A stretch of DNA of 64,000 nt from Candidatus Woesebacteria bacterium GW2011_GWB1_39_12. GTDB lineage: Bacteria > Patescibacteriota > Microgenomatia > UBA8517. The position numbers and the translations under genes were made by a program. Where the stretch lies: NCBI GenBank assembly GCA_000993405.1, contig LBWB01000009.1, positions 77,848 to 141,847 on the forward strand. Direction: 5' to 3'. Under the pieces are notes generated by a model, which was not told the origin of the DNA, searched no databases, and saw only the letters and a program-made list of their open reading frames with translations. The first letter of the stretch is position 1; the number at the start of each line of letters is the position of its first letter. Below, in pieces: positions 26,175 to 40,683 of this stretch.

Positions 26175-26199
26175 CAAGTGCAAACACACATTTTATTTA

Positions 26200-26284
26200 G
26201 CTGGAGTGCCGGAGTGGACAATCGGAGCAGTCTGTAAAACTGCCGCCCGGACGGGCTACCCAGGTTCGAATCCTGGCTCCAGCA
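26200..26284 (+). tRNA. tRNA-Tyr (anticodon GUA), class II with long variable arm
   Basis: Acceptor gctggag/ctccagc, anticodon arm gcagt-ctgtaaa-actgc, long variable arm cgcccggacgggctac, T-arm ccagg-ttcgaat-cctgg. Confidence 0.85.
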
Positions 26285-26316
26285 CAAGTAAAGAATCTTT
26301 CAAGAGAAGTACAAAC

Positions 26317-27528
26317 TTAGACCTGACTTACGACTGTTGGAGGGTCACCGGGGTTGCTTCTTTCTTCTTTCTTCTTTTTTAACTTCAGAAATAAAATTAA
26401 GATTAGCACTAAGATAACTACAGCCCCAAAAGCCAGACCACCGTAAAGTATCCAGTTTTGGATATTTGCAGTACTTTCAGAAAATTGTTCTTCGAAAGTT
26501 TGCAGAGTGTCGCTTTCTACAACATTAATTTTGGTTATTTTGGTCTTTCCTTTGTACTTGACAATTAGGCCGTGCTCCCCTGGCGCCACGTTTTCAAAAG
26601 TAGCTTCACCGTTTTCGTCTGTGACGCTTTCTTTGAGCTCAGAATATAAAGAAATACTAGCCCCTTCAACGGGAGATCCATTAATGTCTAATATCTTTAA
26701 CTTTATCGAAAAACCGGGTGTCAAAAAGGTCGTTGCATCACCCACCGCCTCGTTTTCTTTTGAATCGATAGATTTAACTCTTAAGTAGTAAGTTGTGCCA
26801 GGAATAAGAGTTCCTTCCGCCAAGATAACAACGTGGTCCTTTGTAAGTTCTTCTGAAAGAAAATTGAACTCGTAATTACCTGTTACCCCGTATTCGACAA
26901 TAGAACTTGCAGCAAGATTTGTATTCCATGTAACTTTAGCAGAAGTCTTAGTAATTTCTGTAACCTGGACATTACTAATAGTTAATGCCGCCACTCCCGT
27001 TGAAGTCTGGGTAGTTTGAGAACCGGAGGATGACTGCTCGCTACCTGAACCTGAAAGTGAAAGGTTGGCGGTTGAGCCTCCTGTGAAAATATTGGAATTG
27101 TCGGCATCTTTTAAAATTGCCGAATCGCCTGCGAAACTCAATGTCGCGGAGCCGGAGTCAGCTAAGACAATAAAATTTACAGAAGCTATGAATTTGCTGC
27201 CCGAAAATCCGGGTGTAGGCGTCCCTCCGCCGATTCTTACAAAACCTCCCCCACCCCCCTTTTCAGCAATTATTGTCAAAACCGAGCCGCCGGTAGATAC
27301 GCTTGAAAACTGAAGCTTGTCCGCAGGATAGATAATGTTAGCCTGAACCGCATTTACGTTTTCTCCTCCTGTCGCGACACTTACATTCATCTTTAAGGTA
27401 GAGCCTTTCGAATAGGTACCAGAAGTAGGACTAAGGCTGAATGTAGCCGCAAAGACAGACGAGGGAACGGCCAAAAACAAGACAAAAAAGCTAAAAAAGA
27501 CAAAGAGTTGGGCAGTTATTTTTTTCAT
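26317..27528 (-). CDS. cell-surface protein: signal peptide, cohesin-like domain, Ig/FN3-like repeats, C-terminal TM anchor
   Basis: 403 aa; N-terminal signal; …NAVQANIIYPADKLQFSSV… matches the cohesin consensus (GIxxxDFxxxYDPxxL); C-terminal hydrophobic helix then a KKKK tail. Confidence 0.5.
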   Translation of the reverse strand: MKKITAQLFVFFSFFVLFLAVPSSVFAATFSLSPTSGTYSKGSTLKMNVSVATGGENVNAVQANIIYPADKLQFSSVSTGGSVLTIIAEKGGGGGFVRIGGGTPTPGFSGSKFIASVNFIVLADSGSATLSFAGDSAILKDADNSNIFTGGSTANLSLSGSGSEQSSSGSQTTQTSTGVAALTISNVQVTEITKTSAKVTWNTNLAASSIVEYGVTGNYEFNFLSEELTKDHVVILAEGTLIPGTTYYLRVKSIDSKENEAVGDATTFLTPGFSIKLKILDINGSPVEGASISLYSELKESVTDENGEATFENVAPGEHGLIVKYKGKTKITKINVVESDTLQTFEEQFSESTANIQNWILYGGLAFGAVVILVLILILFLKLKKKKEERSNPGDPPTVVSQV

Positions 27529-28613
27529 TATTTATTATAGTTTGAGAGAATAATGCTTAGATCCAGTATAGTTACTCTTCCGTCGCCATTCAAATCTGCA
27601 CCACCCTGGGAACCAGTTTTGCCGAATTTTGAGAGAACTGTGGATAGGTCAATAATCGTAACTCTACCGTCTTTGTTAACATCTCCTTTTTTATTCAAAG
27701 TCGAGGTTGATGAACCTGAACTACCCGAAGAGGCCGATGAACCTCCACCACTGCTACTTCCTCCGTCACCCCCAGAGGATCCTGAACTTCCTGTTGAAGT
27801 TTGTGTAGTAGTCGTTGGCTGTACGGTTATCGCAGTTGCCGTTGGATTATTGGGAGAAAAAGTAACTGTTGGGTAAGGGGTTACTGTGGGTGTGACAGGA
27901 ACACTCGTTGCGGTCGGTTGGGGTGTTGGTGTATTAGTAGGAGCGGGAGTAGAGGTTGGAGTACTTGTAGGTTCTCCTCCAAATGTTCCACCTCCCGGTA
28001 GGGTCGGCGCCACGGGGGTAGCTGTAGGTGCTTCGGTCGGAATCTCTGTGGGCACAGGAGTCAAAGTAGCCGTGGGTTCGGGAGTTGGAGTTGGTGAAAT
28101 ATAATTGAGAACTAAATTAGCAGGATCAATGTTGCCGCCCAAAGAAGCAGCAGTACTATCGACTATTTGAATATCTGTATTGTCGATGAGGAGGGCCGTA
28201 GCATCATTTTCTGTACCAGAAATAGAAGTCAAAGAAAACTCGCTTACAACTGTATTAAGGCTACTTATCTGAATCTCGTCCAAAAGCTGGAGTTTGGTTG
28301 GATCAAAATTAAAAATTAGTCTAACAAAGGATATTTCAATTTCATTAGAATTTATCATTAGTCTAAAGTGAGCATCTGGGGGCAAGTTTTGTTCGCTTGG
28401 ACCAAAGAAAATGTCGACGGTCGGAGCATCGGCTTGTGTCCTTATGTCGGCGGGACGATTAACAAGGTAAATTATTAACGGGATACTTATAATTAAAGTA
28501 GCGGCGATAATAAATTGGGGAATTATTCCTTTGGGTAAATAGATCTTGAATTTCCAATAAATATCTTTGATGCGTTTTATGAATTTGTTAAAAGGCCTTT
28601 CCAATAATTTCAT
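27528..28613 (-). CDS. membrane-anchored adaptor protein: N-terminal TM, cohesin-like domain, Pro/Thr- and Gly/Ser-rich linker, C-terminal dockerin
   Basis: 361 aa; …FVRLIFNFDPTKLQLLDEIQISS… is cohesin-like. The C-terminus DVNKDGRVTIIDLSTVLSKFGK…DLNGDGRVTILDLSIILSNY is a classic duplicated type-I dockerin calcium-binding repeat. Confidence 0.6.
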   Translation of the reverse strand: MKLLERPFNKFIKRIKDIYWKFKIYLPKGIIPQFIIAATLIISIPLIIYLVNRPADIRTQADAPTVDIFFGPSEQNLPPDAHFRLMINSNEIEISFVRLIFNFDPTKLQLLDEIQISSLNTVVSEFSLTSISGTENDATALLIDNTDIQIVDSTAASLGGNIDPANLVLNYISPTPTPEPTATLTPVPTEIPTEAPTATPVAPTLPGGGTFGGEPTSTPTSTPAPTNTPTPQPTATSVPVTPTVTPYPTVTFSPNNPTATAITVQPTTTTQTSTGSSGSSGGDGGSSSGGGSSASSGSSGSSTSTLNKKGDVNKDGRVTIIDLSTVLSKFGKTGSQGGADLNGDGRVTILDLSIILSNYNK

Positions 28614-28706
28614 AATATTATACGAACTACAATTTAGAGTAAACTATCTCTGGTAATTATTCAACCCCTCACTCACTCCAATCGTTCGGGATGAGCCATA
28701 AAAAAT

Positions 28707-30026
28707 TCATACATAATTGTTTAACCAAAGAACATAATCAATACCGTCAACCATCCCGTCTGAATTAAAATCTCCATCGAGATATCCTCCATTTGTTTCC
28801 TGATTGTAATGATTTAGCCAAATTACATAATCTATTCCGTCAACTCTCCTATCCCCGTTCGCATCTCCGGGCAATGGCGGTTGGGTTGGAGAAGAAGTGG
28901 GCATTTGGGTTGGAATATCAGTTACACTAGCTCCAGGATTTATCGAGGGTGTTGGAGTGGAAGTCTGTGATGGTACTGGGCTCGGATTTACTCCCCCCGG
29001 ATTCCAGCCGGCAAGTTGTGCCATCAGAACCCAAAAGGCTTTTGCGATACGAATCCGAATCGGCCCCATGGTTAGATGACCATTCGTGGTCTCGACAGTA
29101 TAATGCTGACATATCGCTGGATAGTTAATACCGTCATTGGCTAAATTTTCACACACCCCGGGAGATTGACAATATTGGACACCGTCACGATCATCATAGC
29201 AGGGAGACCCATCGGGCAAGTGGGATTCAATATCGGCAAAATCCAGGAAGACCCTATACTTTCCCAAACTATCACGTTGTTGTATATATTGACGCATTTG
29301 GTTGTTGAAATCGGTAGCCACACTATTGCCAATACTTCGAGCCAAACTTGAAGTCATAAAGATAAAATATTTATTGGGGAATCTTGCCAACCGCGTTTCC
29401 AGATCATAAACATCGTTTTTATCCCCGGCATTGTTCCAAAAAAAGCCACCCGGTTGTTCAGCGATCGAGTCAAAATCAAGCACGTTTAAATAGCTGAATT
29501 GGAAGGTGTAAACCGAAAAGTTATTAATACTCCGTTGACCTTGGACTTGATTGTTATCCAAAAGAGCCATGTAGTCGGCAGTCATTGTATACCAAGTTTC
29601 GGCAAACGGTTCATGAATCCAGTTCGTCCGGTTATAACCTCCTGGTCTATACCAGTTAATGGTGTCTGCTGGAAGATTGTAAGTTGGGTCGGCGTGATCC
29701 AATTTTATACAGTCAAGCAGACAATTAGGCCTATTGTCCCAACAAGCTTCATCCGATTCCCATACTAAACAGCTGATCGCTTCATCAGTGTTAACACCAA
29801 CCGAGCGGTTGCCAAAGATCATAGGGATGGCCGCGGCCCGCTGGATATATAAGTCTGGAATTTGCTCAAACAGCGACAGGCTGGTGCGGTTAACGATGAT
29901 CGGGGCCTGTTGCAAACGAGTATTTAAATTAGGGTCAATCTGAGCACTAACTATCCCTACCCCCATAATATTTATGGAAAAATATACTGCTAAAAAAATC
30001 AATGAGTGTGTTAATTTTTTCTTCAC
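28707..30026 (-). CDS. secreted protein of unknown catalytic class with C-terminal dockerin module
   Basis: 439 aa; signal peptide. The C-terminus GDANGDRRVDGIDYVIWLNHY…GDFNSDGMVDGIDYVLWLNNY is a duplicated dockerin-type repeat. Confidence 0.6.
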   Translation of the reverse strand: MKKKLTHSLIFLAVYFSINIMGVGIVSAQIDPNLNTRLQQAPIIVNRTSLSLFEQIPDLYIQRAAAIPMIFGNRSVGVNTDEAISCLVWESDEACWDNRPNCLLDCIKLDHADPTYNLPADTINWYRPGGYNRTNWIHEPFAETWYTMTADYMALLDNNQVQGQRSINNFSVYTFQFSYLNVLDFDSIAEQPGGFFWNNAGDKNDVYDLETRLARFPNKYFIFMTSSLARSIGNSVATDFNNQMRQYIQQRDSLGKYRVFLDFADIESHLPDGSPCYDDRDGVQYCQSPGVCENLANDGINYPAICQHYTVETTNGHLTMGPIRIRIAKAFWVLMAQLAGWNPGGVNPSPVPSQTSTPTPSINPGASVTDIPTQMPTSSPTQPPLPGDANGDRRVDGIDYVIWLNHYNQETNGGYLDGDFNSDGMVDGIDYVLWLNNYV

Positions 30027-30072: not shown

Positions 30073-32754
30073 TCACAACTGTGTTCCATAGTTGTTCAAC
30101 CATATTACATAGTCTACGCCATCAACTCGTCCATCAGAGTTAAAGTCTGCGTCAGATGACCCATTTGAGGTAGTTACACCATAATGATTGAGCCAGATAA
30201 CATAATCGATTCCATCAACACGGCGGTCGTTATTAGCATCACCCAGGATGGGTACTAGGGTTGGTATTGGTGTTGAGCTAGACTGATTATTAAATGCTAT
30301 CTGGTAACTTCCGCTTGATATCCGTATTCTAACCCAGTCAGTTCCGCTGGAAAGAGGGGTCTGAGCTTGACCATTCAAATAGATTGTTATCAATCCCGGT
30401 CGATAAAAAGTAATATCGCTTCCTTGAGAAATAACATTTCCTCCCTCATCACTCATATACAAACTAACCGAGTTCGTGGCTTCAAAACCTCTTTGAGGAG
30501 TGGCGGAATCGCGAAACAAACTTCCCTGGCGGACAAAGTAAGCGCTAGTTTGAGAATTCTGGGTTCTGTACCAAACCGCTTTCCCTCGAAAAGTCACTAA
30601 GTCATGCCGGATATCCGAAGTTGGAGCAGAAGATTCCAGGGCTGTGTCAAAAATACTTGCTGGATGTTGTACGGATGCTCCTGTGTAATTGCTCCCGCTC
30701 AGGCGGGAAAAACCGGCTGCGGCATGAGTGCTATCGTAAGGAAAAACAACAGTTACAATATTCTTCCGGCTACTGCTAAGCGGATAGGTAGAAAAAATGT
30801 ACTTGCCCACATAAGGAGCGTGGTCATCATAGTATTCCCAATGACAAAGTGCTCCGTCAAGAAGATCCACTCTTTGAGGCGGTGTGGCCAAAAATACGCT
30901 TATGCCAGCGCTTTGGTTGGTGAAAGCCACCGAACAAGAAAAAGGGTCGCCTGTTTCGGGATCATAGCAAGTCCGAGGAGTTGCGGGAATTGGAGCCCGG
31001 TATTCCTGATTTGAACTGACGGCAGCAGTCAAATCTGAATTTGGGTGTAAAGCAATATGGGCAGTACTTGTCCCGGCATTACCGGTTATTTCATCAAACA
31101 GTATAAAATAGCCGTTACTTCCAATTTGCGGGTGGACAAAAATAAAATTACGCTGATGCTTACCATTGGGTAAAGCCAGCCCGGAATCCCCGGATGCATA
31201 ATCAATTCCATTTCCGGTAAACCCTTCGCTAATTCCAGCACCAAACTTATACCGATGGTCATTTGCTTCACTTGGATCGTTCGGGTTACCAATATTGTAA
31301 TTTATCAGTGCCGTATTATTTCCTACCGCCCGGTGCGTCATATAGTTAGTGGAAAACCCTAAACACTCATCCGCCCCTTGGGCTCCCCCAGCCCCTTTGA
31401 AACCTACATTTAGAAGAAGCGGCTCTCCGTAAGCAGATACATGTATCGAGTTGGTATCATTGTGGGCATGGAAATAAACCATATTTGGGTCATTAAAATA
31501 CTCTTCGGTTGCCTTTACGTTCCACAAAGCGCCGTACAATGAATTTTTAGTCAAATTGTGGTCCATAAAAAAAGCTCCTCCGTCATTAAATATTCTGCTG
31601 ATTGGGGCAGTCGGAGCCGGCAAAGGATATGATAATAAAACATATTGGAGCAGTCGCCCCGGAAGAAATATCGGGTCTTGAGAAGGTTTGTCTGCAAACT
31701 GCGTCCGCCGCCACATGGCATATTGTCCGGCCTCTTGACTAAACTTGGATGCCTGTCCCGTATGAGCAGTATGTATTGTATAGTAGCCGAAATTCTCCGA
31801 CCAAACCGGGTAAAAATCCGAGCTGTCACCAAAGGGGGCTTGAATCCCTGCCGGGGTGGAAGCATAGCCAAAAAGCCACTCATACAGGTTTTGATATTTG
31901 GGATCTTGATAAAAACTGTAGTTGTCTGCTACCCCGTTCCCGTCAAAATCGATATTTCTAATGATATTGGTGTGTTCCAAAATATCTATAATATGAGATC
32001 TTTCCCCCCGCTGGTGTGCAAAAGCTACGGTACCGTAAAAAGGTCCCTCGTAATAAACCCCGTCCGGAGTAAAAAGCATATCCATCTGGGGCTTATAACC
32101 CACTATGGGCCGATAATCATCTCTCTGACCCCCTTTCACTAACGCATTAATATAAGGATCACTTGCGTCTTTACCTTTGTAAATGTTCCAAACCAACTGT
32201 GTGCCTTCAAATGCGGGTGGGTTGGCTGGAGGGGCATTGTAGTAGTGGTTATATTCCTGAAGTAACCAATTTTCTGCGCTGGTTTTCTCTGCTAAGGTTA
32301 AATCGTTGTAAATAATATCCATAGCCAGGATAGAATCTAAAAAAGCGGCGGCCGGAGCCATAAAGAAGGCTGCGGAGTAATTTGGTGTGCGCTGAACTAC
32401 CAAAATATCAGCCCACATCGGCATCACATTTAGAATTTTCTGTTTATACTGCATACGGTTAGCATCATCTAGTATAAAAGCCAAGGAACAGGCACTCATA
32501 ATATTTTGCATTCGGTACCCTTTATCGTAATCCTGAAGGTCGCCTGGGCTATAGGTTAAATTTTGACAATCGAAAATGGCATCGGCTTTCATACTTGACC
32601 AAGGCTCTTGACTGGCCCGGGCTCTGAGAGCAGGTAATTGGTCTGCACTGACAAGCATAAAAGGATGTGCCGGAGTCTGGGCAGAAATTAGATTAGTAAA
32701 TGCAGTAATCTGAAATAAAACCAAAACACCAACCAATATGACAAAGGTATGCAT
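30073..32754 (-). CDS. secreted putative polysaccharide lyase/hydrolase (heparinase II/III-like guess) with C-terminal dockerin
   Basis: 893 aa; signal peptide. The C-terminus GDANNDRRVDGIDYVIWLNHY…DFNSDGRVDGVDYVIWLNNY is dockerin-type. The catalytic family is assigned only by loose resemblance. Confidence 0.5.
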   Translation of the reverse strand: MHTFVILVGVLVLFQITAFTNLISAQTPAHPFMLVSADQLPALRARASQEPWSSMKADAIFDCQNLTYSPGDLQDYDKGYRMQNIMSACSLAFILDDANRMQYKQKILNVMPMWADILVVQRTPNYSAAFFMAPAAAFLDSILAMDIIYNDLTLAEKTSAENWLLQEYNHYYNAPPANPPAFEGTQLVWNIYKGKDASDPYINALVKGGQRDDYRPIVGYKPQMDMLFTPDGVYYEGPFYGTVAFAHQRGERSHIIDILEHTNIIRNIDFDGNGVADNYSFYQDPKYQNLYEWLFGYASTPAGIQAPFGDSSDFYPVWSENFGYYTIHTAHTGQASKFSQEAGQYAMWRRTQFADKPSQDPIFLPGRLLQYVLLSYPLPAPTAPISRIFNDGGAFFMDHNLTKNSLYGALWNVKATEEYFNDPNMVYFHAHNDTNSIHVSAYGEPLLLNVGFKGAGGAQGADECLGFSTNYMTHRAVGNNTALINYNIGNPNDPSEANDHRYKFGAGISEGFTGNGIDYASGDSGLALPNGKHQRNFIFVHPQIGSNGYFILFDEITGNAGTSTAHIALHPNSDLTAAVSSNQEYRAPIPATPRTCYDPETGDPFSCSVAFTNQSAGISVFLATPPQRVDLLDGALCHWEYYDDHAPYVGKYIFSTYPLSSSRKNIVTVVFPYDSTHAAAGFSRLSGSNYTGASVQHPASIFDTALESSAPTSDIRHDLVTFRGKAVWYRTQNSQTSAYFVRQGSLFRDSATPQRGFEATNSVSLYMSDEGGNVISQGSDITFYRPGLITIYLNGQAQTPLSSGTDWVRIRISSGSYQIAFNNQSSSTPIPTLVPILGDANNDRRVDGIDYVIWLNHYGVTTSNGSSDADFNSDGRVDGVDYVIWLNNYGTQL

Positions 32755-32763
32755 TTTTTCTCT

Positions 32764-35709
32764 TTAAGATCCGTAATTGTTTAGCCATATCACATAATCA
32801 ATTCCATCAACTGCCCCATCGCCATTAAAATCCCCACCAGAACTTCCGTTTCCTGCTGCCTGATTATAATGATTAAGCCAGATAACATAATCAATTCCGT
32901 CTACCACCCTATCTCCATTTGCATCACCAGGAACCGGCACTAAAGTTGGAGTTGGAGAATCAGTTACCCCGGCTCCAGGATCCACCCCAGAAGAAGGTGC
33001 TTCTATAGTAGCTACTAAATTTTGAATAAAGAAAAGGTCGCCACGTTGAAATGCAGGAGTATCCAAATACTTATAGAGATTTTCGCGTGACTCGTTTTGT
33101 ATCCAAGCTTTAGCTTGGAAAAGGGCCGGATAATCATAAAGCGACTGCATTACCGACTCTCCCTGGGCAGCTTCGTACCGGGCTACAAACCAATAAGGAG
33201 CGATTGTATTGTAGTCCGCAAGAGCCGAACCGACTTGGGCGTTTAAATTAGTTGCATAGGCATCAGCTATCTCCGGCACCAGACCCAGGAAGTTTCTGGC
33301 AATATTCATATTGCGTTTATGATAGGAAACTTCGTCTGTGCCAGTAAACGGAGTGTCCTTACTAAAGGTACTCCAGCGGTAAGTTTTGAGATTAGTCAAT
33401 TCAGTTTGGATACTGTTTTTCAAAGATGCATCTCCAGTACCAATCCCGGCCAGGGTGTGTAAATTCAAAAATCCCTGATACCCTGCCATCCAAGAATTCA
33501 TTTCCCAAACATTGGCACTACCGCTTAAGCGCGGAGCAGTTTGAGAAATTGTGCCATTGGTAATTAATGTTTTAGCCCGGTCATAAACTGCTCGAACCGC
33601 CGTAGTGTCCGTACCCAAAACATTTTTTGCATACAAATACATCGCATACAGATTTTGCGGCGGATAATTATAAGAAGCCCCAGAGGTCCCGTACCCCGGT
33701 CCAAAGGTGGCAAAATCTGGTGATATATCGGGGGGAAAATTCATATCTTCCCGCGCTATCCCTGTCGCCCAACCTACGCTCGCATAAGCATTAGTCTGAA
33801 AATAAGTCTGATATTCCTGCTGTAAAAATGTCTTTAGTCGGCTTTGGAGGTTCAAAGAGAGGTGGGGATAAGCTAAAGACAAGGTGTAAAGTGTGTCGCC
33901 CGGATTGTTAAAATAGTCAGAAATATAGTCATACATAAATTGATTGACGTTATAATATCCGGGTCGAAGGTGACCTGCGGATACGTGTTTATCAACTTCA
34001 TTTTCTAAGCGATTTTTAAGTGCATCGAGGGAAATGGCTGGAGCCGTATCACTCTTAGACGTAAGTGCCTGGGTAGCCAGCTTTCTGGCTCCCCCGTTTG
34101 GACCAAATGCAATAAGAGCGTTGCCCCTGTGAATAAAAACTCTATTTTGATGGGCAACAAATGCAGTTTGATCACCATGAGTGTGATATAACCCATTTAC
34201 TGAGTCATTCGGCCCGGAGTAAAAACCGCAAAGATTTGGGTGGCCGCAATCTAAAATCGTCCACATCTCATTATAATTAGGGGCTTTGGATGATAAATCA
34301 TATTGCCAGAACATACCGCCGCCGTTTAGGGAAAAATAATCAGCAAATCGATCACAACATACGCTGCGGAATATTACACTGCCCCCCATCGAAATGGATT
34401 GAGGCTCAGCCGTAGCCCCATTTCCAGCTCCAAAACCTCCTGTCCCAGCCAGAGCTAAATAGGTAGGGTTTAGTGGATTCCAAGCAAATACAGTTCCCCG
34501 CGGATCGCCGGAAGCTTGGAAAACGCTATTGTAATAGAGATTACCATTTGCTCCCACAATTGGGGGGTAATCATTACCCGATCCAGTACCGTAATAGACG
34601 GCCGGCATATACTCAGGATATCCATCACCATCGGAATCAAAGGTAAATTCGCTCCCATTACTTTTGTTGAGTACTACAAATGGCCGCCTCCAAGGTTTGT
34701 ATTTTCGTTGGTCTACCAAAGTCTGTCCATGGTTTTCAAAATATTCGGTTATTCGCGGAGCCGCATTATATGTAGTCATACCACTGGCCCATGCCGGGGG
34801 TGTCACTGTGGGACCAAGGTATGCCGAACCTGTATAATTTGTGCAGTTTAGTTCTGGAAACATATCACAGATCTGATCAGAGTATAAAGGACTATTTTGT
34901 CCTGGACGCTTACCGTTTCGAAAATCTTCTGAAGCCGAAAAAATGACATAATTTTGGTAGATTACCGGCCAGAATGATTGATATTGAGATCCGGGCAGCG
35001 TCGCGGATTCCCAAGCCTTGACCCCGGTCGTAGCATTAAGCGCATAGGCCTTCATATTTTGAGAAGCAAAATATAAAACGCCATTATCATAAGCTGGAGA
35101 AATCAGTATCGGACCTAGGGCTATTTGATTAGCGGCCGGATACTGCCAAACCAAATTCCCATTCGCTGCGTCGAGCGCATAGAAATAGCCGTCGCGGCCA
35201 CCCAAATAAACTCTGTTATTTACTACAATAGGGCTGCCGCTGAAGCCCGCCTTAGCCCCGCTAAATTCCCAAACTGCTGAGCCATTTGTAGCGGTCAAAG
35301 CATGGATCTTTTTATCGTAACTGCCGAAATAAACCACATTATTAACCACCGTCGGAGTAAAAATTGGCATTTCGCTATCGTATTTCCAAACGAGTACGCC
35401 ATCAGCCGCGTTATAAACATAAAGGCCGCGGCTTGTCGCTATGTAAAGCTTGCCCTGAACAGCGATTACTTGAGTTTTTTGGTCAATATATGCTTCTATT
35501 GGTCGATACCATTCAACACTTAAATTCCCAGTAGGCCCGGCATCTGTTCGACTTTCGCGTTTAAAATTACCTGCTGTTGTATACCAGTCCGAGCTAGATT
35601 GCGCATTAACCGGAGTCGCCAAAAAAACTAAACCCATAACGATTCCTAAAAGTGGAAAGACAACCTCCTTGAGTCTCATAGATTTATTATATAGCTTTTT
35701 GTTAATCAT
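32764..35709 (-). CDS. secreted PQQ-like beta-propeller repeat protein with C-terminal dockerin
   Basis: 981 aa; signal peptide; several …YALDAANGNLVWQY…-type PQQ/beta-propeller repeats; the C-terminus GDANGDRVVDGIDYVIWLNHY…GDFNGDGAVDGIDYVIWLNNYGS is dockerin-type. Confidence 0.6.
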   Translation of the reverse strand: MINKKLYNKSMRLKEVVFPLLGIVMGLVFLATPVNAQSSSDWYTTAGNFKRESRTDAGPTGNLSVEWYRPIEAYIDQKTQVIAVQGKLYIATSRGLYVYNAADGVLVWKYDSEMPIFTPTVVNNVVYFGSYDKKIHALTATNGSAVWEFSGAKAGFSGSPIVVNNRVYLGGRDGYFYALDAANGNLVWQYPAANQIALGPILISPAYDNGVLYFASQNMKAYALNATTGVKAWESATLPGSQYQSFWPVIYQNYVIFSASEDFRNGKRPGQNSPLYSDQICDMFPELNCTNYTGSAYLGPTVTPPAWASGMTTYNAAPRITEYFENHGQTLVDQRKYKPWRRPFVVLNKSNGSEFTFDSDGDGYPEYMPAVYYGTGSGNDYPPIVGANGNLYYNSVFQASGDPRGTVFAWNPLNPTYLALAGTGGFGAGNGATAEPQSISMGGSVIFRSVCCDRFADYFSLNGGGMFWQYDLSSKAPNYNEMWTILDCGHPNLCGFYSGPNDSVNGLYHTHGDQTAFVAHQNRVFIHRGNALIAFGPNGGARKLATQALTSKSDTAPAISLDALKNRLENEVDKHVSAGHLRPGYYNVNQFMYDYISDYFNNPGDTLYTLSLAYPHLSLNLQSRLKTFLQQEYQTYFQTNAYASVGWATGIAREDMNFPPDISPDFATFGPGYGTSGASYNYPPQNLYAMYLYAKNVLGTDTTAVRAVYDRAKTLITNGTISQTAPRLSGSANVWEMNSWMAGYQGFLNLHTLAGIGTGDASLKNSIQTELTNLKTYRWSTFSKDTPFTGTDEVSYHKRNMNIARNFLGLVPEIADAYATNLNAQVGSALADYNTIAPYWFVARYEAAQGESVMQSLYDYPALFQAKAWIQNESRENLYKYLDTPAFQRGDLFFIQNLVATIEAPSSGVDPGAGVTDSPTPTLVPVPGDANGDRVVDGIDYVIWLNHYNQAAGNGSSGGDFNGDGAVDGIDYVIWLNNYGS

Positions 35710-38413
35710 AATGATTTAGCCAGATAACATAGTCTATCCCGTCAACTGCCCCATCAGAGTTAAAGTCTGCGTCAGATGATCCATTTGAGGTAGTTGTATC
35801 ATAATGATTTAGCCAGATAACATAGTCTATGCCGTCAACTCTTCCATCGCCGTTTGCATCTCCCTGAACCGGCACTAAAGTTGGTGTAGGTGAAGGGAAC
35901 AAAGACGGACCAATCTGTGAATAATCTCCTACTTTAATTCCAGCATCTGCAACGCTTGACGGCAAATTATTTAAATTTATAACCAGATTCCCCTGACTGT
36001 CGGTGGTTAGCGACGAAAGGGGCGGCCTAGTTAACCCGGTGTTGGTATCAAAATACCACCACTCAACTGGTAAAATAGCATTTGCACTAAATCCGGCGAC
36101 TATAACACTTCCGGCTAGACGACTACTGTCCCAGACTTGGGGACAACCAGAAATATTCCCCGATACCGCACACCAAGTGTGACGTTTATTTTGAATCCAC
36201 AAATGGGCACGGTTTGTGGACGGATTTTTCTGCCCAACAACCCGTACATTAGCATCAGAAACAGTTGCGGCTAAGTTCTGATAACCACCAAGATTGAGGG
36301 GAATGTTTTTTACAAAATCAAAAACGTCTTTGAAATGGTGCCTGTGATCAAAATCCATTCTAATCGAGCAGGGTGGACCCCCGGGGCAGTCGTAAATATG
36401 CCAATTTTCAAACCAGTAAGACTCAATGAGCCCATTGGAATTAAGTCCTCCCCAGAGAAAGTTGTGCAACCAAACTCCATTTCTATCCGTATGAATATCA
36501 AGGTTGGGATCCAAATTATCACTGTTGACAAAACCCGTCTCCCCTCGGATTACCGGCCAGCGAGCGGAATTTTGCGGACCCCAAAGACTTGCGGCATCTA
36601 TGGTAGCTTGGGCGGCATCGTAGAAATCTTCCAAAGGAACACAGGCAGAACCGCTTCGGCGGTTATAACAATGGACATCGCCGAAATCAATTCCAGGATA
36701 ATTACTCAGGTTCCAACTCGAAGTTGTTCCATTCCAGACAGATGTGGCCGACAAATGTCTGGGTGTGAACTGATGAAAATACCGCCCCATCAAATCTGCA
36801 GCAACAGCGTGTTCGGTACCGGGCGTACCTTCATTGACAAATTCCCAGGAATGAATGGCTGTGGAATATCCCCAACGGGCTTGCAGGTATCGCCACCATT
36901 GCTTTTGCAACCAACGGCTTCGAGTCACCGAACCATCAGTCGGTCCATAAAGGTAAGCACTATTGGGGGAAGCAGTGTACAATCCGTTCCAGCCAAAACT
37001 GGCTAAAATTTCTTCCCGCCAGTCTAAAACTACCGGACGAAGATAAACACCATACTCTTCTGCCATGTTAACGACTTTATCAAAAGCAAAGGAATTGCGC
37101 TGATCAAAATAGCGGTGATGATCCATGAAAGGCTTGGGCAAAATATTGGAGCCATACTGACCATTACCCAAATCCTCTTCTATCCAAACATAACGAACTT
37201 CAGCCATACCGGCGCTGACATTTTCCAAAGCTAAAACAATAAAGTCGAGAAAACGCTGGTCGGCTTGGGTAGTAAAATTACCTTCAAGAGTCTGCCAGGC
37301 GGCAACGTTGTTGGGTTGTACTGGGGTAATCTTGGAACCACTTGCGGCAAGGTTGCAATTATCGCTGGTATTGGTAAATTTGACAACAAAACCGTAAGGT
37401 TGCCCGTTAACCGCCGGACCCTCTATACCCAAGGTTTTATAGTTCACGCGTAAACGATAACGGGTATTGGGTTTTACCGGCGGATGCGGAGAATTTAAGC
37501 CGTACATAAAACACCGGCTGGGATTAGAACTTATCTGAAAAGCAAACTCTGTTACCGGGTTGGTACCCGGATCATACATAAGCCAAGTCCAAGGCGGATC
37601 ATTCCCGTTGCTGGCAGCATCCCGCCATGGATTCCAGTGCGAACCAAAAATTGACCACTGGGAAAGCCAGACACGAATAAGCTGGATGCCGTTATCCCCC
37701 ATCGCACGAAAATGATCGATATTATCGCCCTGGCTGGTAGGACTATCAGCTTCGGGATCAATCCACTGAATGTGATTGTAATTCATGTTATAACCAAGGG
37801 CAGGGAAATATGTCCCGTCTTCAAATTCAAAGTATCGCTTATCCATTTGGGAAACTCGGATAAACCCCTTATTTTCCGAATTAACAACCTCAAAACCTTG
37901 AGAAGAAGATATTACAGTACCCGATGCATCTTGGACCTTGAGGCGGTACTGCCAAGTGCCTGCCTGATTAGGAGCATAGCGGACTTTCCAATAATAATTA
38001 GTGGTCGGGTAATACCAGTCAGTACCCCATTGGCTGGGATGGGTTTCATCTAGAAAATCTTGGTAGTAGAAAGCGGGTTGGGTGTAGGCTCTGGTCCAAT
38101 CGGATTGGCCCGGGGGAAGGAATTCTGCATCAACAGCGATACCTTGGTCAAAGGGATAATTCTCGGAACCGGGGTAAGGGCTGGTATTTGGTTCATAGGC
38201 AAAATTTAAGTTTTGGGCGACTGTATTTTGAATCTGGAAAGTAATTTCAAACTTTTCGTACTTGGGAATTTGAGAATTTGGATAAGAGCTTTTATTATCC
38301 GATATGTTGCTAATCGAAGGGCCGGTTTGGGCACTCACTGAAGGAACATAAAAGCCAAAAAAAACGACTAAAAAAGCAATGAAAAATACCCGTCTTACCA
38401 AGTTACAAAGCAT
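35702..38413 (-). CDS. secreted putative glycoside hydrolase (GH5-like / DUF5060-DUF4038-type guess) with C-terminal dockerin
   Basis: The track ORF runs to 38491, but the signal peptide starts at the internal Met (MLCNLVRRVFFIAFLVVFFGFYVPSVSAQ), so the start is probably 38413. WEFVNEGTPG resembles the GH5 NEP acid/base region. The C-terminus GDANGDGRVDGIDYVIWLNHY…DFNSDGAVDGIDYVIWLNHYD is dockerin-type. Confidence 0.55.
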   Translation of the reverse strand: MLCNLVRRVFFIAFLVVFFGFYVPSVSAQTGPSISNISDNKSSYPNSQIPKYEKFEITFQIQNTVAQNLNFAYEPNTSPYPGSENYPFDQGIAVDAEFLPPGQSDWTRAYTQPAFYYQDFLDETHPSQWGTDWYYPTTNYYWKVRYAPNQAGTWQYRLKVQDASGTVISSSQGFEVVNSENKGFIRVSQMDKRYFEFEDGTYFPALGYNMNYNHIQWIDPEADSPTSQGDNIDHFRAMGDNGIQLIRVWLSQWSIFGSHWNPWRDAASNGNDPPWTWLMYDPGTNPVTEFAFQISSNPSRCFMYGLNSPHPPVKPNTRYRLRVNYKTLGIEGPAVNGQPYGFVVKFTNTSDNCNLAASGSKITPVQPNNVAAWQTLEGNFTTQADQRFLDFIVLALENVSAGMAEVRYVWIEEDLGNGQYGSNILPKPFMDHHRYFDQRNSFAFDKVVNMAEEYGVYLRPVVLDWREEILASFGWNGLYTASPNSAYLYGPTDGSVTRSRWLQKQWWRYLQARWGYSTAIHSWEFVNEGTPGTEHAVAADLMGRYFHQFTPRHLSATSVWNGTTSSWNLSNYPGIDFGDVHCYNRRSGSACVPLEDFYDAAQATIDAASLWGPQNSARWPVIRGETGFVNSDNLDPNLDIHTDRNGVWLHNFLWGGLNSNGLIESYWFENWHIYDCPGGPPCSIRMDFDHRHHFKDVFDFVKNIPLNLGGYQNLAATVSDANVRVVGQKNPSTNRAHLWIQNKRHTWCAVSGNISGCPQVWDSSRLAGSVIVAGFSANAILPVEWWYFDTNTGLTRPPLSSLTTDSQGNLVINLNNLPSSVADAGIKVGDYSQIGPSLFPSPTPTLVPVQGDANGDGRVDGIDYVIWLNHYDTTTSNGSSDADFNSDGAVDGIDYVIWLNHYD

Positions 38414-38420: not shown

Positions 38421-39182
38421 TTATATTCTTCTTTTCCTACCAATCCTACCAATAAAATAGCCCGACAGACCACCGGAGATAAGTAAACCAAAAACTACCA
38501 AAAAATATATATAACTATTACCACTCAATTTACTGTCGTTATCGTCGCTTTTAATGGTCAGGCTATCTTCCGCCCCCTTAACGATTCCTTCTTTTTTCCT
38601 AAACGGATTCAGTTTTGAAGATGTGTCTTTATCGGAAGTATTGTCCGATGTCACACTAACACCAGGCGTCAACTCTGAAGCAGGACTCTCAACTTTAACT
38701 AGCAGGCTGCCGGTTCTTATTAAGATATCGACGCCCTCAGAAACAACAACATTGCTATCAGTTGAACTCCCGGGTGAAAAGTCAAAAGAAACATTTGTCG
38801 ACTCGGTTCTTTCTCTTCCCTCAAAAGTTATTTTTGCAACAGATTTCTTCTCGGTTGTAAAAACGCTATAGTCGTTTGAAAATGCGATTTCGACCGAGCC
38901 GCTATCGTTGTCGACCGATTGTGCCGGTGAAGTCGAAAATGCTTTTAAATCCTCGATTTCTATAACTTTTACATACTTGGGGTCATACTTTATAAAAAGG
39001 TCTATTCCGATAACTTCAGCGCCACCAGGATCCAGAACTACATCGACTTTCTTCTGACTGCCTTCGGCAAGCGATATAGCATTTTCGGAAAAAGAGATCG
39101 AGGAATTTGTAGCTAAAGCCGTCCTTGAAAGGCCGAAAAGCAGTAGGAACGAAAGAAAAAAAACCTTTTTTGCATCAGTCAT
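38421..39182 (-). CDS. membrane-anchored cohesin-domain protein: signal peptide, one cohesin, C-terminal TM anchor
   Basis: 253 aa; …VDVVLDPGGAEVIGIDLFIKYDPKYVKVIEIED… matches the cohesin signature (cf. GIANCDFVFRYDPNVLEII); C-terminal TM then RIGRKRRI. Confidence 0.6.
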   Translation of the reverse strand: MTDAKKVFFLSFLLLFGLSRTALATNSSISFSENAISLAEGSQKKVDVVLDPGGAEVIGIDLFIKYDPKYVKVIEIEDLKAFSTSPAQSVDNDSGSVEIAFSNDYSVFTTEKKSVAKITFEGRERTESTNVSFDFSPGSSTDSNVVVSEGVDILIRTGSLLVKVESPASELTPGVSVTSDNTSDKDTSSKLNPFRKKEGIVKGAEDSLTIKSDDNDSKLSGNSYIYFLVVFGLLISGGLSGYFIGRIGRKRRI

Positions 39183-40683
39183 TGGTCTTGAAGAAATTTT
39201 GAATTAAGATCCAGTAATCAAAAGTGTTTACAATTCCATCTTTGTTATAGTCGGCAGATCCGCCTCCAAACCAACTACCATACATCAAAGACAAATCAAT
39301 ATTATTAACTACCCCATCGTCGTTCATGTCTCCTGCCAATAGACTTCCAAAATTCACTAAATTTTCCCCCGAGTCAACCAGTAAGGTCGCTTTCTTTCTT
39401 AAAAAACCAGTTACTTTCGCGAAGAATTCGTAAGTGTTTCCAATAAACTGTGCAGGCAATTCAATTGGAGCGCTCACGCCCTCGGTGTCCGTTGAAAAAC
39501 TATTAGAAAAGCCGTCGCTACTTTCAACAATTCCTGCTACCTGATGCCCACTCGTCCCCTCAAAGGACGTTGTCAGTTTAACCTTAAGGCTGGCCTTATC
39601 AATTATCTCTATAGAAAGCGGTTGAGGGGGAGTCAAAATATCCTGGCCGCTGGCGGCTGCAATCACATTGCTTTCGCTTTTCGAGTTGGGCGCAAACTCG
39701 AAGTCAAAATCGGTAGTTCCGACAGATTTGGCCAAAAAGTTTACGGCTGCAACCGAACCCTTCCCTACATAGCTAAACCCCTGTGACTCGATTTGAGAAA
39801 TTCTAATCAGGCCAGCGGAATTATCAAAAGAACTGATAGTGTTTCCGCTTAAAAGTTTATTATCATCAATTGAAACTACTTCCACTTTTGATGGATCAAA
39901 GTTAACCACGGCATCTATACCCACGACGGGAGTGGAAGTTGATACCTGCAAATCAGTTGAAAACTGACTACCCAAGATAGGAGGGTTAATAAGACTTAAA
40001 GAAAGTGTTGTCGGATCTGGGGATGAAGGTGTATCGGTAGGCGTGGGAGTAGGAGTATCCGTTGGCAAGGGAGAATTGGTTGGCGTGGGAGTAATTTCAG
40101 GGGTTACTTCAATGTTAGCCAATAAATCCGCATTTTCCGTCAGAAAATCTAGATTTTGGGCATCTATGCTTACAATTTGTATGTCTTGACTATCTATTGC
40201 CAATTCCGAATGGATATTTGTTTCTTCTGTCTTTAACTCCAAAGGTATTTTTGCTAATTCAAAAACTCCTGAAGGTGGACTTTGCCGTTGTTCAGCAGAA
40301 AGACCCAGAACAAGCAGTATTTGCCCGTTTGTGTTGGCTTCATTCATGCCTGTCTTTTCTATCACACTAGCCAAAAGTGGCGTAGTTTCAATTTCCTGGG
40401 AAAGACTGAAATAAGTATTGTCAAAGTAAATTTTTACTCTTATAAAGCCGATTCCTTCGCTTTTGGAATCGACCGTCAAACTGAAAGTGGTATCTGGAGG
40501 AAATACTGCAATATTGGGCTCAAAATAAATATCGACTTGATCTTGAGCCTTAACAAGATTTAGTTTAAAAACCCAAAATGAAAAAGTATAAAAAAGAACC
40601 AAAAACAAGAGAGATAAAAGTGAAAATCTAAATACAAAAGTACTTCTTTTAAGGGCCTTGAATTTTTGGAATAAATTAATCAT
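39175..40683 (-). CDS. scaffoldin-like protein: N-terminal TM anchor, two cohesin-like domains separated by a Pro/Thr linker, C-terminal dockerin
   Basis: 502 aa. Cohesin-like 1 is …EGIGFIRVKIYFDNTYFSL…. The linker is TPTPTNSPLPTDTPTPTPTDTP. Cohesin-like 2 is …PVVGIDAVVNFDPSKVEVVSID…. The dockerin is GDMNDDGVVNNIDLSLMYGSW…DYNKDGIVNTFDYWILIQNF. Confidence 0.6.
   Translation of the reverse strand: MINLFQKFKALKRSTFVFRFSLLSLLFLVLFYTFSFWVFKLNLVKAQDQVDIYFEPNIAVFPPDTTFSLTVDSKSEGIGFIRVKIYFDNTYFSLSQEIETTPLLASVIEKTGMNEANTNGQILLVLGLSAEQRQSPPSGVFELAKIPLELKTEETNIHSELAIDSQDIQIVSIDAQNLDFLTENADLLANIEVTPEITPTPTNSPLPTDTPTPTPTDTPSSPDPTTLSLSLINPPILGSQFSTDLQVSTSTPVVGIDAVVNFDPSKVEVVSIDDNKLLSGNTISSFDNSAGLIRISQIESQGFSYVGKGSVAAVNFLAKSVGTTDFDFEFAPNSKSESNVIAAASGQDILTPPQPLSIEIIDKASLKVKLTTSFEGTSGHQVAGIVESSDGFSNSFSTDTEGVSAPIELPAQFIGNTYEFFAKVTGFLRKKATLLVDSGENLVNFGSLLAGDMNDDGVVNNIDLSLMYGSWFGGGSADYNKDGIVNTFDYWILIQNFFKTND

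What the first reader, a model, noticed from the sequence alone, without database searches (positions are those of the whole stretch)
27528..28613. Adaptor scaffoldins carrying both cohesin(s) and a dockerin imply a hierarchical multi-tier assembly
Two proteins combine an N-terminal membrane anchor, cohesin-like domain(s) and a C-terminal dockerin. They are 27528..28613 (one cohesin plus the classic dockerin DVNKDGRVTIIDLS/DLNGDGRVTILDLS) and 39175..40683 (two cohesins plus GDMNDDGVVNNIDLS…DYNKDGIVNTFDY). Their dockerins differ in sequence type from the enzyme-borne dockerins (the GIDYVIW type). This suggests at least two cohesin-dockerin specificities, as in type I and type II interactions of cellulosomes. 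Separate pure-anchor cohesin proteins lie at 38421 and 26317.
Basis: inference. Interest (0 to 1): 0.7.

Follow-up and report, generated by a model that had tools for sequence, protein, structure and literature searches.

The report
Cohesin-dockerin adaptor proteins, CPR-type operon
An eight-gene operon, probably from an uncultured Microgenomates-like bacterium, encodes a cellulosome-style kit for hanging secreted enzymes on the cell surface through adaptor and anchor proteins. The adaptor at the flagged coordinates has lost part of its enzyme-binding module.

Summary
The features are real. All six dockerins pass Pfam thresholds. They fall into three sequence classes: four enzymes (75-85% identical to each other), B (27528-28613) and H (39175-40683).

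H carries two true cohesins. The N-terminal one is invisible to Pfam, but its AlphaFold model (pLDDT 96.9) matches only cohesins in the PDB.

B's N-module belongs to that same divergent cohesin class, which has 709 clusters in public data. B alone among about 150 relatives lacks roughly 30 residues, covering the β4-β5 helix, strand β5 and the class's most conserved motifs.

A and G are cohesin proteins with a signal peptide and a C-terminal membrane helix.

Comparative genomics supports a hierarchy:
- In all 12 fetched loci (10 distinct contigs) with an A-like gene and upstream sequence, the ORF immediately upstream carries a B-type dockerin.
- H-G adjacency recurs in four lineages.

Binding specificities are untested. 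The "N-terminal anchors" may be cleavable signal peptides. The cargo shows no cellulase signature.

Verdict: a cellulosome-like, multi-tier display system of a known kind. Cohesin/dockerin genes have already been noted in Microgenomates, so interest is moderate.

The parts
27528..28613 (-). B: adaptor-type protein (361 aa). Order of parts: N-terminal hydrophobic segment, truncated class-3 cohesin, T/P/S/G-rich linker, B-type dockerin.
   Evidence: ORF; Pfam Dockerin_1 E 6.6e-12; identical to library representative P0071.
28461..28526 (-). B N-terminal hydrophobic segment (residues 30-51). It is either a signal anchor or the h-region of a cleavable signal peptide (…TQA|DAP).
   Evidence: Read from the sequence. 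Family-wide small-x-Ala junction motif in 125 of 138 members.
28092..28427 (-). B class-3 cohesin-like module (residues 63-174), internally deleted.
   Evidence: 30% identity to H cohesin 1 at E 4e-11. hhalign 99.7% to the deep class-3 profile. hmmsearch splits it into profile positions 1-66 and 97-150.
28230..28256 (-). Site of the ~30-residue in-frame deletion in B (…NTVVS|EFSL…). It removes the β4-β5 helix, strand β5 and the β5-β6 loop, including the ANxxG and PxG motifs.
   Evidence: Alignment A1. A5 conserved columns A73, N74, G77, P94, G96. DSSP of the H cohesin 1 model. All orthologues are intact.
27687..28091 (-). B linker, about 135 residues, rich in T, P, S and G.
   Evidence: Composition T35 P24 S21 G16 of 130 residues.
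27531..27686 (-). B-type dockerin: two near-symmetric repeats, DVNKDGRVTIIDLSTVLSKF and DLNGDGRVTILDLSIILSNY.
   Evidence: Repeat identity 13/20. 63% identical to the dockerins of orthologues P0061 and P0153.
26317..27528 (-). A: anchor protein (403 aa). Order of parts: signal peptide, class-1 cohesin (27049-27447), FN3 (26758-26979), CarboxypepD_reg (26506-26706), C-terminal TM (26386-26454), KKKK tail. Its start codon overlaps B's stop codon (TAATG).
   Evidence: Pfam fn3 and CarboxypepD_reg. hhalign of A3 against bona fide cohesins 97.7%, E 2.4e-12. The only PDB hits are cohesin 6kgc/6kg8. Junction sequence.
39175..40683 (-). H: adaptor-type protein (502 aa) with two cohesins, an unassigned module and an H-type dockerin.
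   Evidence: Architecture conserved in P0002-P0005 and P0008.
40102..40554 (-). H cohesin 1 (class 3, residues 44-194).
   Evidence: AF2 pLDDT 96.9. Foldseek against the PDB returns cohesins for all top 50 hits, best E 4.5e-11.
39601..40008 (-). H cohesin 2 (class 2, residues 226-361).
   Evidence: Pfam Cohesin E 3.8e-9. Profile A2 hits PDB cohesins at E 5e-4.
39334..39600 (-). H unassigned ~90-aa module that abuts the dockerin directly. By position it is analogous to an X-module; the fold was not established.
   Evidence: Conserved in A4. No Pfam hit. hhalign against CarboxypepD_reg is not significant.
39178..39333 (-). H-type dockerin with asymmetric repeats, DMNDDGVVNNIDLSLMYGSW and DYNKDGIVNTFDYWILIQNF.
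   Evidence: Repeat identity 7/20, with 0/8 in the helix. 65-70% conserved in P0002-P0004.
38421..39182 (-). G: anchor protein (253 aa). Order of parts: signal peptide, class-2 cohesin (38682-39110), linker, C-terminal TM (38448-38513), RKRR tail. Overlaps the end of H by 8 nt.
   Evidence: Pfam Cohesin E 4.1e-6. 31.5% identical to H cohesin 2 at E 4e-18. G-like genes follow H-like genes in L001, L005 and L007.
35702..38413 (-). F: cargo protein, DUF5060-type putative glycosidase with an enzyme-type dockerin (35732-35860). The likely start is the ATG at 38413, not the TTG at 38491.
   Evidence: Pfam dockerin. PDB 9gmj DUF5060 protein at E 1e-17. Signal peptide begins at M27.
32764..35709 (-). 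E: cargo protein with a PQQ/BamB-like β-propeller, a C-terminal region and an enzyme-type dockerin (32797-32925).
30073..32754 (-). D: cargo protein with weak heparinase II/III-like and oligoalginate-lyase-like signals and an enzyme-type dockerin (30112-30240).
   Evidence: No relative by PDB sequence search.
28707..30026 (-). C: cargo protein of unknown catalytic family with an enzyme-type dockerin (28737-28865).
   Evidence: No relative by PDB sequence search.
41863..42681 (-). I: possible further anchor (272 aa). Order of parts: N-terminal TM, weakly cohesin-like module (42097-42552), T/P linker, LPDAG plus a C-terminal hydrophobic segment. Membership is tentative.
   Evidence: blastp A against I E 2e-4. 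hhalign of I alone against the A-type profile gives only 41%. No Pfam hit.

Best explanation
Genes H-G-F-E-D-C-B-A (40683 to 26317, minus strand) form one tightly packed operon. It encodes a cellulosome-like, multi-tier surface display system in a bacterium whose nearest named relative is a Candidatus Gottesmanbacteria (Microgenomates, CPR) genome.

**Tier 0, anchors.** A and G are type-I membrane proteins. Each has a signal peptide, an extracellular cohesin and a C-terminal TM helix. Protein I may be a third anchor.

**Tier 1, adaptors.** B and H carry cohesin(s) plus a dockerin of their own class.

**Tier 2, cargo.** Four secreted proteins (C-F) carry a near-identical 'GIDYVIWLN' dockerin.

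**Proposed wiring.**
- B-type dockerin binds A's class-1 cohesin.
- H-type dockerin binds G's class-2 cohesin.
- Enzyme dockerins bind the class-3 cohesins, the divergent class found on B orthologues and as H cohesin 1, and possibly H cohesin 2.

**Shown.** Module identities, the three dockerin classes, the three cohesin classes, and the conserved adaptor-anchor gene pairs.

**Inferred.** Which dockerin binds which cohesin, and where each protein sits.

**B in this genome.** B has lost strand β5 and the conserved motifs of its cohesin. It probably still docks onto A, but it may no longer recruit cargo. That would leave H as the working adaptor.
For: **Modules.**
- Dockerins.
- Canonical cohesins in G and H cohesin 2.
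- H cohesin 1 is a cohesin by fold.
- Class-3 profile against the cohesin profiles gives 90-94%.
- A's module gives 97.7%.

**Operon.** Gene junctions are overlaps of 1-8 nt or gaps of at most 93 nt.

**B-A pairing.**
- TAATG stop/start overlap.
- The same order (enzyme with E-type dockerin, then B-like, then A-like) occurs in L021/L022 and L024.
- In 12 of 12 fetched loci (10 distinct contigs) with A-like genes and upstream sequence, the adjacent upstream ORF has a B-type dockerin. This holds even where its cohesin is class 2 rather than class 3, as in L030 and L031.
- A's cohesin (60-63%) and B's dockerin (63-69%) are more conserved than the rest of their proteins (34-53%).

**H-G pairing.** Adjacent or overlapping in four lineages.

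**Architecture tracks dockerin class.**
- 20 of 30 class-3-plus-dockerin proteins have a B-type dockerin.
- 21 of 27 class-3-plus-class-2-plus-dockerin proteins have an H-type dockerin.

**Class 3 and enzyme dockerins.** A class-3 cohesin is present in every locus that holds E-type dockerin enzymes.
Against: - No binding data exist.
- B's cohesin is truncated, and AF2 could not fold it (pLDDT 36.5 with a 5-sequence alignment).
- G-type cohesins are only 30-34% conserved while H dockerins are 65-70% conserved, so H-G co-conservation is weak.
- H cohesin 2 is in the same class as G. If the H dockerin binds class 2, H could also self-associate.
- If the N-terminal segments of B and H are uncleaved anchors, the 'adaptor' geometry changes.
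- The assignment of enzyme dockerins to class 3 rests on co-occurrence and elimination only.
- Loci related by descent are not independent observations.
Confidence: 0.6

Rival explanations
1. One-tier or promiscuous system. All dockerins, including those of B and H, bind the membrane-anchored cohesins of A, G and I directly and interchangeably. The sequence classes reflect paralogue history rather than specificity. B and H simply add extra cohesin sites at the surface.
For: - Dockerin classes share the Ca-loop scaffold and are 37-48% identical.
- Cross-reactivity is known among some cellulosomal pairs (general knowledge).
- There is no direct specificity evidence here.
Against: - Recognition positions 10/11/17/18 differ completely: GI/LN, II/LS, and NI-TF/YG-IQ.
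- Each dockerin class is conserved within its own architecture across distant genomes.
- The strict B-dockerin/class-1 adjacency in 12 of 12 fetched loci is hard to explain without a specific pairing.
Confidence: 0.12
2. B is a decaying gene in this genome. The internal deletion destroyed its cohesin, so B is at most a dockerin-tagged, linker-rich surface filament or a competitor for A's cohesin. The only functional adaptor here is H.
For: - The ~30-residue deletion removes the β4-β5 helix, β5 and the family's most conserved motifs ANxxG and PxG.
- It is unique among about 150 relatives and all syntenic orthologues.
- β-sheet 8-3-6-5 is the dockerin-binding face (PMC5429695).
- AF2 on the B module gave pLDDT 36.5.
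Against: - The ORF is intact and in frame, with a well-conserved dockerin (63%) and a coupled start for A.
- β5 is an edge strand, so the fold might survive.
- The AF2 failure may only reflect the shallow alignment.
- The deletion could be an assembly artefact; no second assembly covers it. L025 covers only B's C-terminal 180 aa.
Confidence: 0.3
3. B and H stay anchored in the membrane by uncleaved N-terminal helices. Their dockerins reach sideways to A and G on the same cell, or to cohesins on a neighbouring or host cell. The system then works as an envelope lattice or adhesion device rather than an outward-growing enzyme scaffold.
For: - The hydrophobic segments are long, 19-24 residues, and follow long basic n-regions.
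- CPR bacteria are often episymbionts (PMC9123182).
- Cohesin-dockerin pairs have non-cellulosomal uses (PMC5429695, conclusions section).
Against: - A small-x-Ala motif sits at the TM/module junction in 125 of 138 members, and [KR]A in 59 of 138 against 5% background.
- This resembles the xA|Q ends of the enzymes' own signal peptides.
- Four co-operonic dockerin-tagged enzyme-like proteins argue for cargo display.
Confidence: 0.2

Closest known systems
Ruminococcus flavefaciens ScaC adaptor scaffoldin, with ScaA/ScaB/ScaE (PMC5429695)
   Same: - ScaC is a single cohesin plus a dockerin on one polypeptide. It recruits a subset of dockerin-tagged enzymes and plugs into another scaffoldin's cohesin through a dockerin of a different group.
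- The system has several dockerin groups with discrete specificities.
- Scaffoldin genes are clustered.
- B orthologues (class-3 cohesin, linker, dockerin) have exactly this architecture.
   Different: - Here the base proteins are held by C-terminal TM helices, not by sortase.
- The adaptor cohesin belongs to a divergent class that Pfam does not detect.
- The cargo shows no cellulase or hemicellulase signature.
- The window's own B has a truncated cohesin.
- No binding has been demonstrated.
Clostridium (Acetivibrio) thermocellum CipA with its type II X-dockerin and the anchors SdbA/OlpB/Orf2p; Acetivibrio cellulolyticus ScaA/ScaB/ScaC (PMC4217186, PMC4959524)
   Same: - A scaffoldin carries cohesins for enzymes plus a C-terminal dockerin of a second specificity.
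- That dockerin is preceded directly by a non-catalytic module and binds cohesins of cell-bound anchors encoded next to it.
- H (two cohesins, a module, then an asymmetric dockerin), followed by G, mirrors this arrangement.
   Different: - H has only two cohesins, and they are of two different classes.
- There is no CBM and there are no SLH domains.
- The module before H's dockerin has not been shown to be an X-module.
- The type I/type II labels cannot be transferred by sequence.
Cohesin/dockerin genes reported in CPR Microgenomates (Ca. Shapirobacterales, Ca. Roizmanbacterium), cited in PMC9123182
   Same: Same superphylum-level lineage. Cohesin and dockerin domains occur together with polysaccharide lyases or glycoside hydrolases and were interpreted as a cellulosome.
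   Different: - As far as PMC9123182 describes, those reports rest on domain annotation and expression.
- Not described there: the adaptor/anchor wiring, the three dockerin classes, the divergent class-3 cohesin family, and the conserved B-A and H-G gene pairs.
- I could not read the Roizmanbacterium paper.
Single-cohesin proteins with C-terminal transmembrane helices in Firmicutes (PMC11557425)
   Same: Putative non-SLH anchoring scaffoldins made of one cohesin plus a C-terminal TM helix, like A and G.
   Different: - In that study their dockerin partners were mostly unidentified.
- Here each anchor gene has a conserved upstream dockerin-bearing partner gene.

Membership tests
Dockerin (Pfam PF00404, type I dockerin repeat) | Score above the Pfam gathering threshold (22.9 bits). 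| tested here: met
   B 45.9, H 24.5, C 24.6, D 25.7, E 27.7 and F 30.4 bits.
Dockerin (Pfam PF00404, type I dockerin repeat) | Two tandem segments of about 22 residues, each an EF-hand-like Ca loop (D-x-[ND]-x-[DN]-G-…-D) followed by a helix. | tested here: met
   12 loops in six proteins, two per protein, at the C-terminus.
Dockerin (Pfam PF00404, type I dockerin repeat) | Ca2+-dependent binding to a cohesin. | not testable with these tools
   Needs recombinant protein.
Cohesin (PF00963; nine-stranded β jelly-roll) | Sequence match to the Pfam Cohesin model above threshold. | tested here: inconclusive
   - Met for G (27.5 bits) and H cohesin 2 (37.3 bits).
- Not met for B's N-module, H cohesin 1, A and I.
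- Only 5 of 50 class-3 members give even weak Cohesin hits.
Cohesin (PF00963; nine-stranded β jelly-roll) | Cohesin fold. | tested here: met
   - H cohesin 1: pLDDT 96.9, and the top 50 Foldseek PDB hits are all cohesins, with TM 0.59-0.78.
- A: profile comparison only, 97.7%.
- B: member of the class (99.7%).
Cohesin (PF00963; nine-stranded β jelly-roll) | Complete 8-3-6-5 dockerin-binding sheet, tested for B specifically. | tested here: not met
   B lacks profile positions 67-96, which are the β4-β5 helix, β5 and the β5-β6 loop. Strands were numbered by their order in the model, which is an inference.
Adaptor scaffoldin (ScaC / ScaB / CipA-like) | Cohesin(s) and a dockerin on one secreted polypeptide. 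| tested here: met
   - H: two cohesins plus a dockerin.
- B: a truncated cohesin plus a dockerin.
- B orthologues: an intact cohesin plus a dockerin.
Adaptor scaffoldin (ScaC / ScaB / CipA-like) | The adaptor's dockerin differs in specificity from enzyme dockerins and binds an anchoring scaffoldin's cohesin. | tested here: inconclusive
   - Sequence classes differ.
- Conserved adaptor-anchor gene adjacency in 12 of 12 fetched loci for B-A and in 4 lineages for H-G.
- Binding itself is not testable here.
Cellulosome in the strict sense (cellulolytic) | Dockerin-bearing cellulases or hemicellulases (such as GH5/9/48) and a cellulose-binding CBM on the scaffoldin. | tested here: not met
   - No GH or CBM Pfam/NCBIfam hits in C-F, B or H.
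- The cargo is a weak heparinase II/III-like protein, a PQQ-type propeller, a DUF5060-type protein and an unknown.
Cellulosome in the strict sense (cellulolytic) | Cell attachment through SLH domains or sortase. | tested here: not met
   - A and G end in a TM helix plus a basic tail.
- No SLH hit.
- Only I has an LPDAG-like motif.

The most novel reading that the evidence does not exclude
The N-modules of B and H represent a large cohesin class that current domain models do not recognise, with 709 clusters at 50% identity. Together with class-1 and class-2 cohesins and three matching dockerin classes, it would form a lineage-wide, three-specificity wiring code: enzyme dockerin to class 3, B dockerin to class 1, H dockerin to class 2. 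This code would build membrane-helix-anchored 'lyasomes' on ultra-small CPR cells, possibly to harvest polysaccharide from host envelopes or biofilm matrix rather than from plant cell walls.
Probability: 0.3. Interest if true: 0.65.

Novelty: new member of a known kind. Interest (0 to 1): 0.45.

Why it matters
If the inferred wiring holds, reduced-genome Microgenomates-like bacteria invest about 14 kb in a modular display system with orthogonal cohesin-dockerin pairs and simple membrane-helix anchors.

- It would extend the scaffoldin/adaptor principle beyond cellulolytic Firmicutes.
- It would explain how such cells concentrate scarce extracellular enzymes at their surface.
- It would provide three new candidate orthogonal cohesin-dockerin pairs for synthetic scaffolds.
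- Domain-based surveys using Pfam Cohesin undercount cohesins in these lineages, because the class-3 and class-1 modules are missed.

Tried and rejected
- **Homologue search for B.** A word-indexed search with B residues 1-180 found nothing. An exact-sequence contig look-up for B also found nothing.
- **Shallow PDB profile.** The 5-sequence class-3 profile against PDB sequences gave no meaningful hit. The 50-sequence profile gave only weak cohesin hits at E 0.51. The fold search was what settled the question.
- **AF2 on B's module.** With a 5-sequence alignment it failed at pLDDT 36.5. This does not say whether the truncated module folds.
- **N-module as a non-cohesin β-sandwich or pilin-like domain.** I considered this and rejected it on the Foldseek result and on the lack of any competing family.
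- **H's pre-dockerin module.** I tested whether it is a CarboxypepD_reg-like domain like the one in A. The result was not significant.
- **Protein I as a cohesin.** Support is weak: 41% on its own.
- **Promoter and terminator scan.** Counts over 25.7-43.3 kb did not exceed shuffled expectation.
- **PDB sequence searches for C and D.** Both were empty.
- **AFDB fold library.** It was unavailable, so I obtained no taxon names for class-3 relatives.
- **Mobile element.** I considered that the cluster sits on one, because T4SS genes neighbour the L005 cluster. The window's flanks are housekeeping genes.
Full report
**What is at the coordinates**

The region 26317-40683 holds eight tightly spaced genes on the minus strand. 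I call them H, G, F, E, D, C, B and A. Junctions are overlaps of 1-8 nt or gaps of at most 93 nt. Two more minus-strand genes lie upstream: a PGA_cap gene and protein I, 41863-42681.

The flagged ORF B (27528-28613, 361 aa) and ORF H (39175-40683, 502 aa) exist as described.

**Dockerins**

Pfam Dockerin_1 scores above its gathering threshold in B (E 6.6e-12), H, and the four large proteins C, D, E and F. A six-frame scan finds exactly 12 dockerin Ca-loop motifs in the 64-kb window. All 12 are in these six proteins, two per protein, at the C-terminus.

The dockerins fall into three classes:
- The four enzyme dockerins are 75-85% identical to each other.
- B and H are 37-48% identical to every other dockerin.
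- At the positions that determine specificity in studied dockerins (10, 11, 17 and 18 of each repeat, from established knowledge), the classes read GI/LN for enzymes, II or IL/LS for B, and NI or TF/YG or IQ for H.

The enzyme and B dockerins are internally symmetric, with 14-17 and 13 of 20 positions identical between repeats. The H dockerin is asymmetric, with 7 of 20 identical and 0 of 8 in the helix. In known systems, symmetry goes with dual binding and asymmetry with single binding (PMC5429695).

**Cohesins**

Pfam recognises only G and the second module of H. A profile of that class (A2) hits PDB cohesins.

*Class 3: the N-modules of B and H.* They are 30% identical to each other at E 4e-11 and have no Pfam hit. 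Profile-profile comparison to the canonical class gives 89.5-92%, and to the A-type class 93.7%.

An exhaustive HMMER search found 709 clusters (at 50% identity) of this module. 516 of them score at E ≤ 1e-10.

With a 50-sequence alignment, AlphaFold2 models H's N-module at pLDDT 96.9. Foldseek against the PDB returns only cohesins in the top 50. The best is CaCohA2 (6kgf) at E 4.5e-11 and TM 0.75-0.77. H therefore carries two true cohesins. The first belongs to a divergent class that I call class 3.

*Class 1: A's N-module.* Together with four close relatives and the weaker module of protein I, it gives 97.7% and E 2.4e-12 against the canonical class. Its only PDB hits are cohesins. I call this class 1. 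Protein I on its own is only weakly cohesin-like, at 41%.

**B is a truncated member**

B's module matches the deep class-3 profile at 99.7%. It lacks profile positions 67-96.

On the H model, this is the helix between β4 and β5, strand β5 and the β5-β6 loop. The strand numbering follows order in the model and is an inference. The lost segment contains the class's nearly invariant ANxxG and PxG motifs.

Sheet 8-3-6-5 is the dockerin-binding face of cohesins (PMC5429695). No other member among about 150 relatives has this deletion, and none of the syntenic orthologues has it.

AF2 on the truncated module was uninformative, at pLDDT 36.5 with a shallow alignment. No second assembly covers the deletion site.

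**Anchors**

A has these parts in order: signal peptide, class-1 cohesin, FN3, CarboxypepD_reg, C-terminal TM, KKKK tail. G has: signal peptide, class-2 cohesin, linker, C-terminal TM, RKRR tail.

**The N-termini of B and H**

Both have 22-24-residue hydrophobic segments after basic n-regions. Across the family, 125 of 138 members have a small-x-Ala motif at the junction with the module. 59 of 138 have [KR]-Ala, against 5% background. This resembles the xA|Q ends of the enzymes' own signal peptides. Whether these segments are anchors or cleaved signal peptides is open.

**Comparative genomics**

H has relatives at 22-41% identity with the same architecture. In the window, L001/L002, L005 and L007 (a Candidatus Gottesmanbacteria MAG), the H-like gene is followed, usually with an overlap, by a G-like gene. 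Enzymes with the 'DY[VI]IWLN' dockerin are nearby in the window, L001/L002 and L005.

B's closest relatives are P0061, P0153 and P0053. They have intact modules and dockerins 61-69% identical to B's. In L021/L022 and L024 the gene order is: enzyme with enzyme-type dockerin, B-like, A-like.

A metagenome scan with the A family returned 37 loci. I annotated them locally with HMMs for the three cohesin classes and the dockerin.
- In all 12 fetched loci with a close A-like gene and upstream sequence, the ORF immediately upstream on the same strand carries a B-type dockerin. These A-like genes are 43-99% identical to A, apart from one 31% outlier. The 12 are 10 distinct contigs: L026 and L027 give identical annotations, and L029 is the same contig as L022.
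- In L030 and L031 that upstream ORF has a class-2 cohesin rather than a class-3 cohesin. The constant feature is therefore the B-type dockerin next to the class-1 anchor.
- Several more distant class-1 arrays also have an upstream B-type dockerin ORF.

Among class-3 proteins, architecture tracks dockerin class:
- 20 of 30 class-3-plus-dockerin proteins have a B-type dockerin.
- 21 of 27 class-3-plus-class-2-plus-dockerin proteins have an H-type dockerin.
- Proteins with two or three tandem class-3 modules also exist.

A's cohesin (60-63%) and B's dockerin (63-69%) are more conserved than the rest of their proteins.

**Mechanism (inferred)**

Cargo proteins C-F are exported and captured by class-3 cohesins, and perhaps by H cohesin 2. 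The adaptors dock through their own dockerins onto membrane-anchored cohesins: B onto A, H onto G.

My estimates for the individual steps:
- Any hierarchical assembly: about 0.6-0.65.
- B onto A: about 0.7.
- H onto G: about 0.5.
- Enzyme dockerin onto class 3: about 0.4.

In this genome B probably still docks onto A, but it may not recruit cargo.

**Cargo**

The cargo has no cellulase signature:
- D is weakly heparinase II/III-like or oligoalginate-lyase-like.
- E has a PQQ/BamB-type propeller.
- F is related to DUF5060 proteins (PDB 9gmj, E 1e-17).
- C is unknown.

Relatives' clusters carry PL8 and β-helix lyase-like proteins. 'Cellulosome-like' describes the assembly logic, not the substrate.

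**Comparison with known systems**

The design equals adaptor and anchoring scaffoldins of *R. flavefaciens* (ScaC), *A. cellulolyticus* and *C. thermocellum* (PMC5429695, PMC4217186, PMC4959524).

It differs in four ways:
- Anchoring is by TM helix. This has been noted as a possibility in some Firmicutes (PMC11557425).
- The adaptors use the divergent class-3 cohesin.
- No scaffoldin carries a CBM.
- The cargo is different.

Cohesin/dockerin genes, and even 'cellulosomes', have already been reported in Microgenomates (PMC9123182, citing a Roizmanbacterium study that I could not read). I therefore file this as a new member of a known kind. The useful additions are the class-3 cohesin family, the conserved adaptor-anchor gene pairs, and the truncated B.

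**Verdict**

Interest is moderate, at 0.45.

Noticed in passing
window 26103-26285 and 43104-43179; composition 26-42 kb: tRNA genes bracket the cluster: tRNA-Thr(tgt) and tRNA-Tyr just downstream of A, and tRNA-Thr(ggt) just upstream of protein I. The cluster's G+C is 0.41-0.465, against 0.37-0.40 in most flanks, and its GC skew is near zero. This may be a horizontally acquired island, or it may only reflect composition from the T/P-rich linkers.
   Followed up: partly
window 41863-42681 (minus strand): Protein I ends in GGLPDAG followed by a 22-residue hydrophobic segment. That resembles a variant sortase (LPXTG-like) sorting signal, but there is no basic tail. It also has an N-terminal TM helix. 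No sortase gene turned up among the neighbouring genes I scanned.
   Followed up: partly
window 40811-41767 (minus strand): A PGA_cap (CapA-like) gene (Pfam E 4.7e-62) sits between protein I and H. The same arrangement is seen in the identical contig L003. Its link to the cohesin-dockerin system is unknown.
   Followed up: no
window 38413-38491 (minus strand): The mechanical ORF for F starts at a TTG and overlaps G by 71 nt. A typical signal peptide begins at the ATG at 38413, 8 nt after G's stop codon. The true F is probably 35702-38413.
   Followed up: yes
L030:246-1100 and L031:1069-1911: In two metagenomic loci the protein upstream of the A-like anchor has a canonical-type (class-2) cohesin fused to a B-type dockerin, rather than a class-3 cohesin. 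This suggests module shuffling on a constant dockerin-anchor pair.
   Followed up: partly
L021:6754-9276: An 840-aa Cys-rich protein ends in a hybrid dockerin. Its first repeat is degenerate (DINRDFVVNNDDY) and its second is enzyme-type (DGVDYVIWLNN).
   Followed up: no
L005:1-5700: In one relative, the H-like/G-like cluster lies next to conjugative type IV secretion genes (TrbC, TraC-like, TraG-like P-loop, M23 peptidase). Nothing similar flanks the cluster in the window.
   Followed up: partly
window 49838-50671 (plus strand): A 277-aa protein with a borderline CBM96 hit (26.0 bits against a cut-off of 26) lies outside the cluster, among housekeeping genes.
   Followed up: no
Genome-contig loci L009-L020: Dockerins resembling the H and enzyme classes (D-x-N-x-D-G-x-V-N/D-x-x-D … W) are frequent in Planctomycetota/Phycisphaerae MAGs. 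Their cohesin partners were not examined.
   Followed up: no
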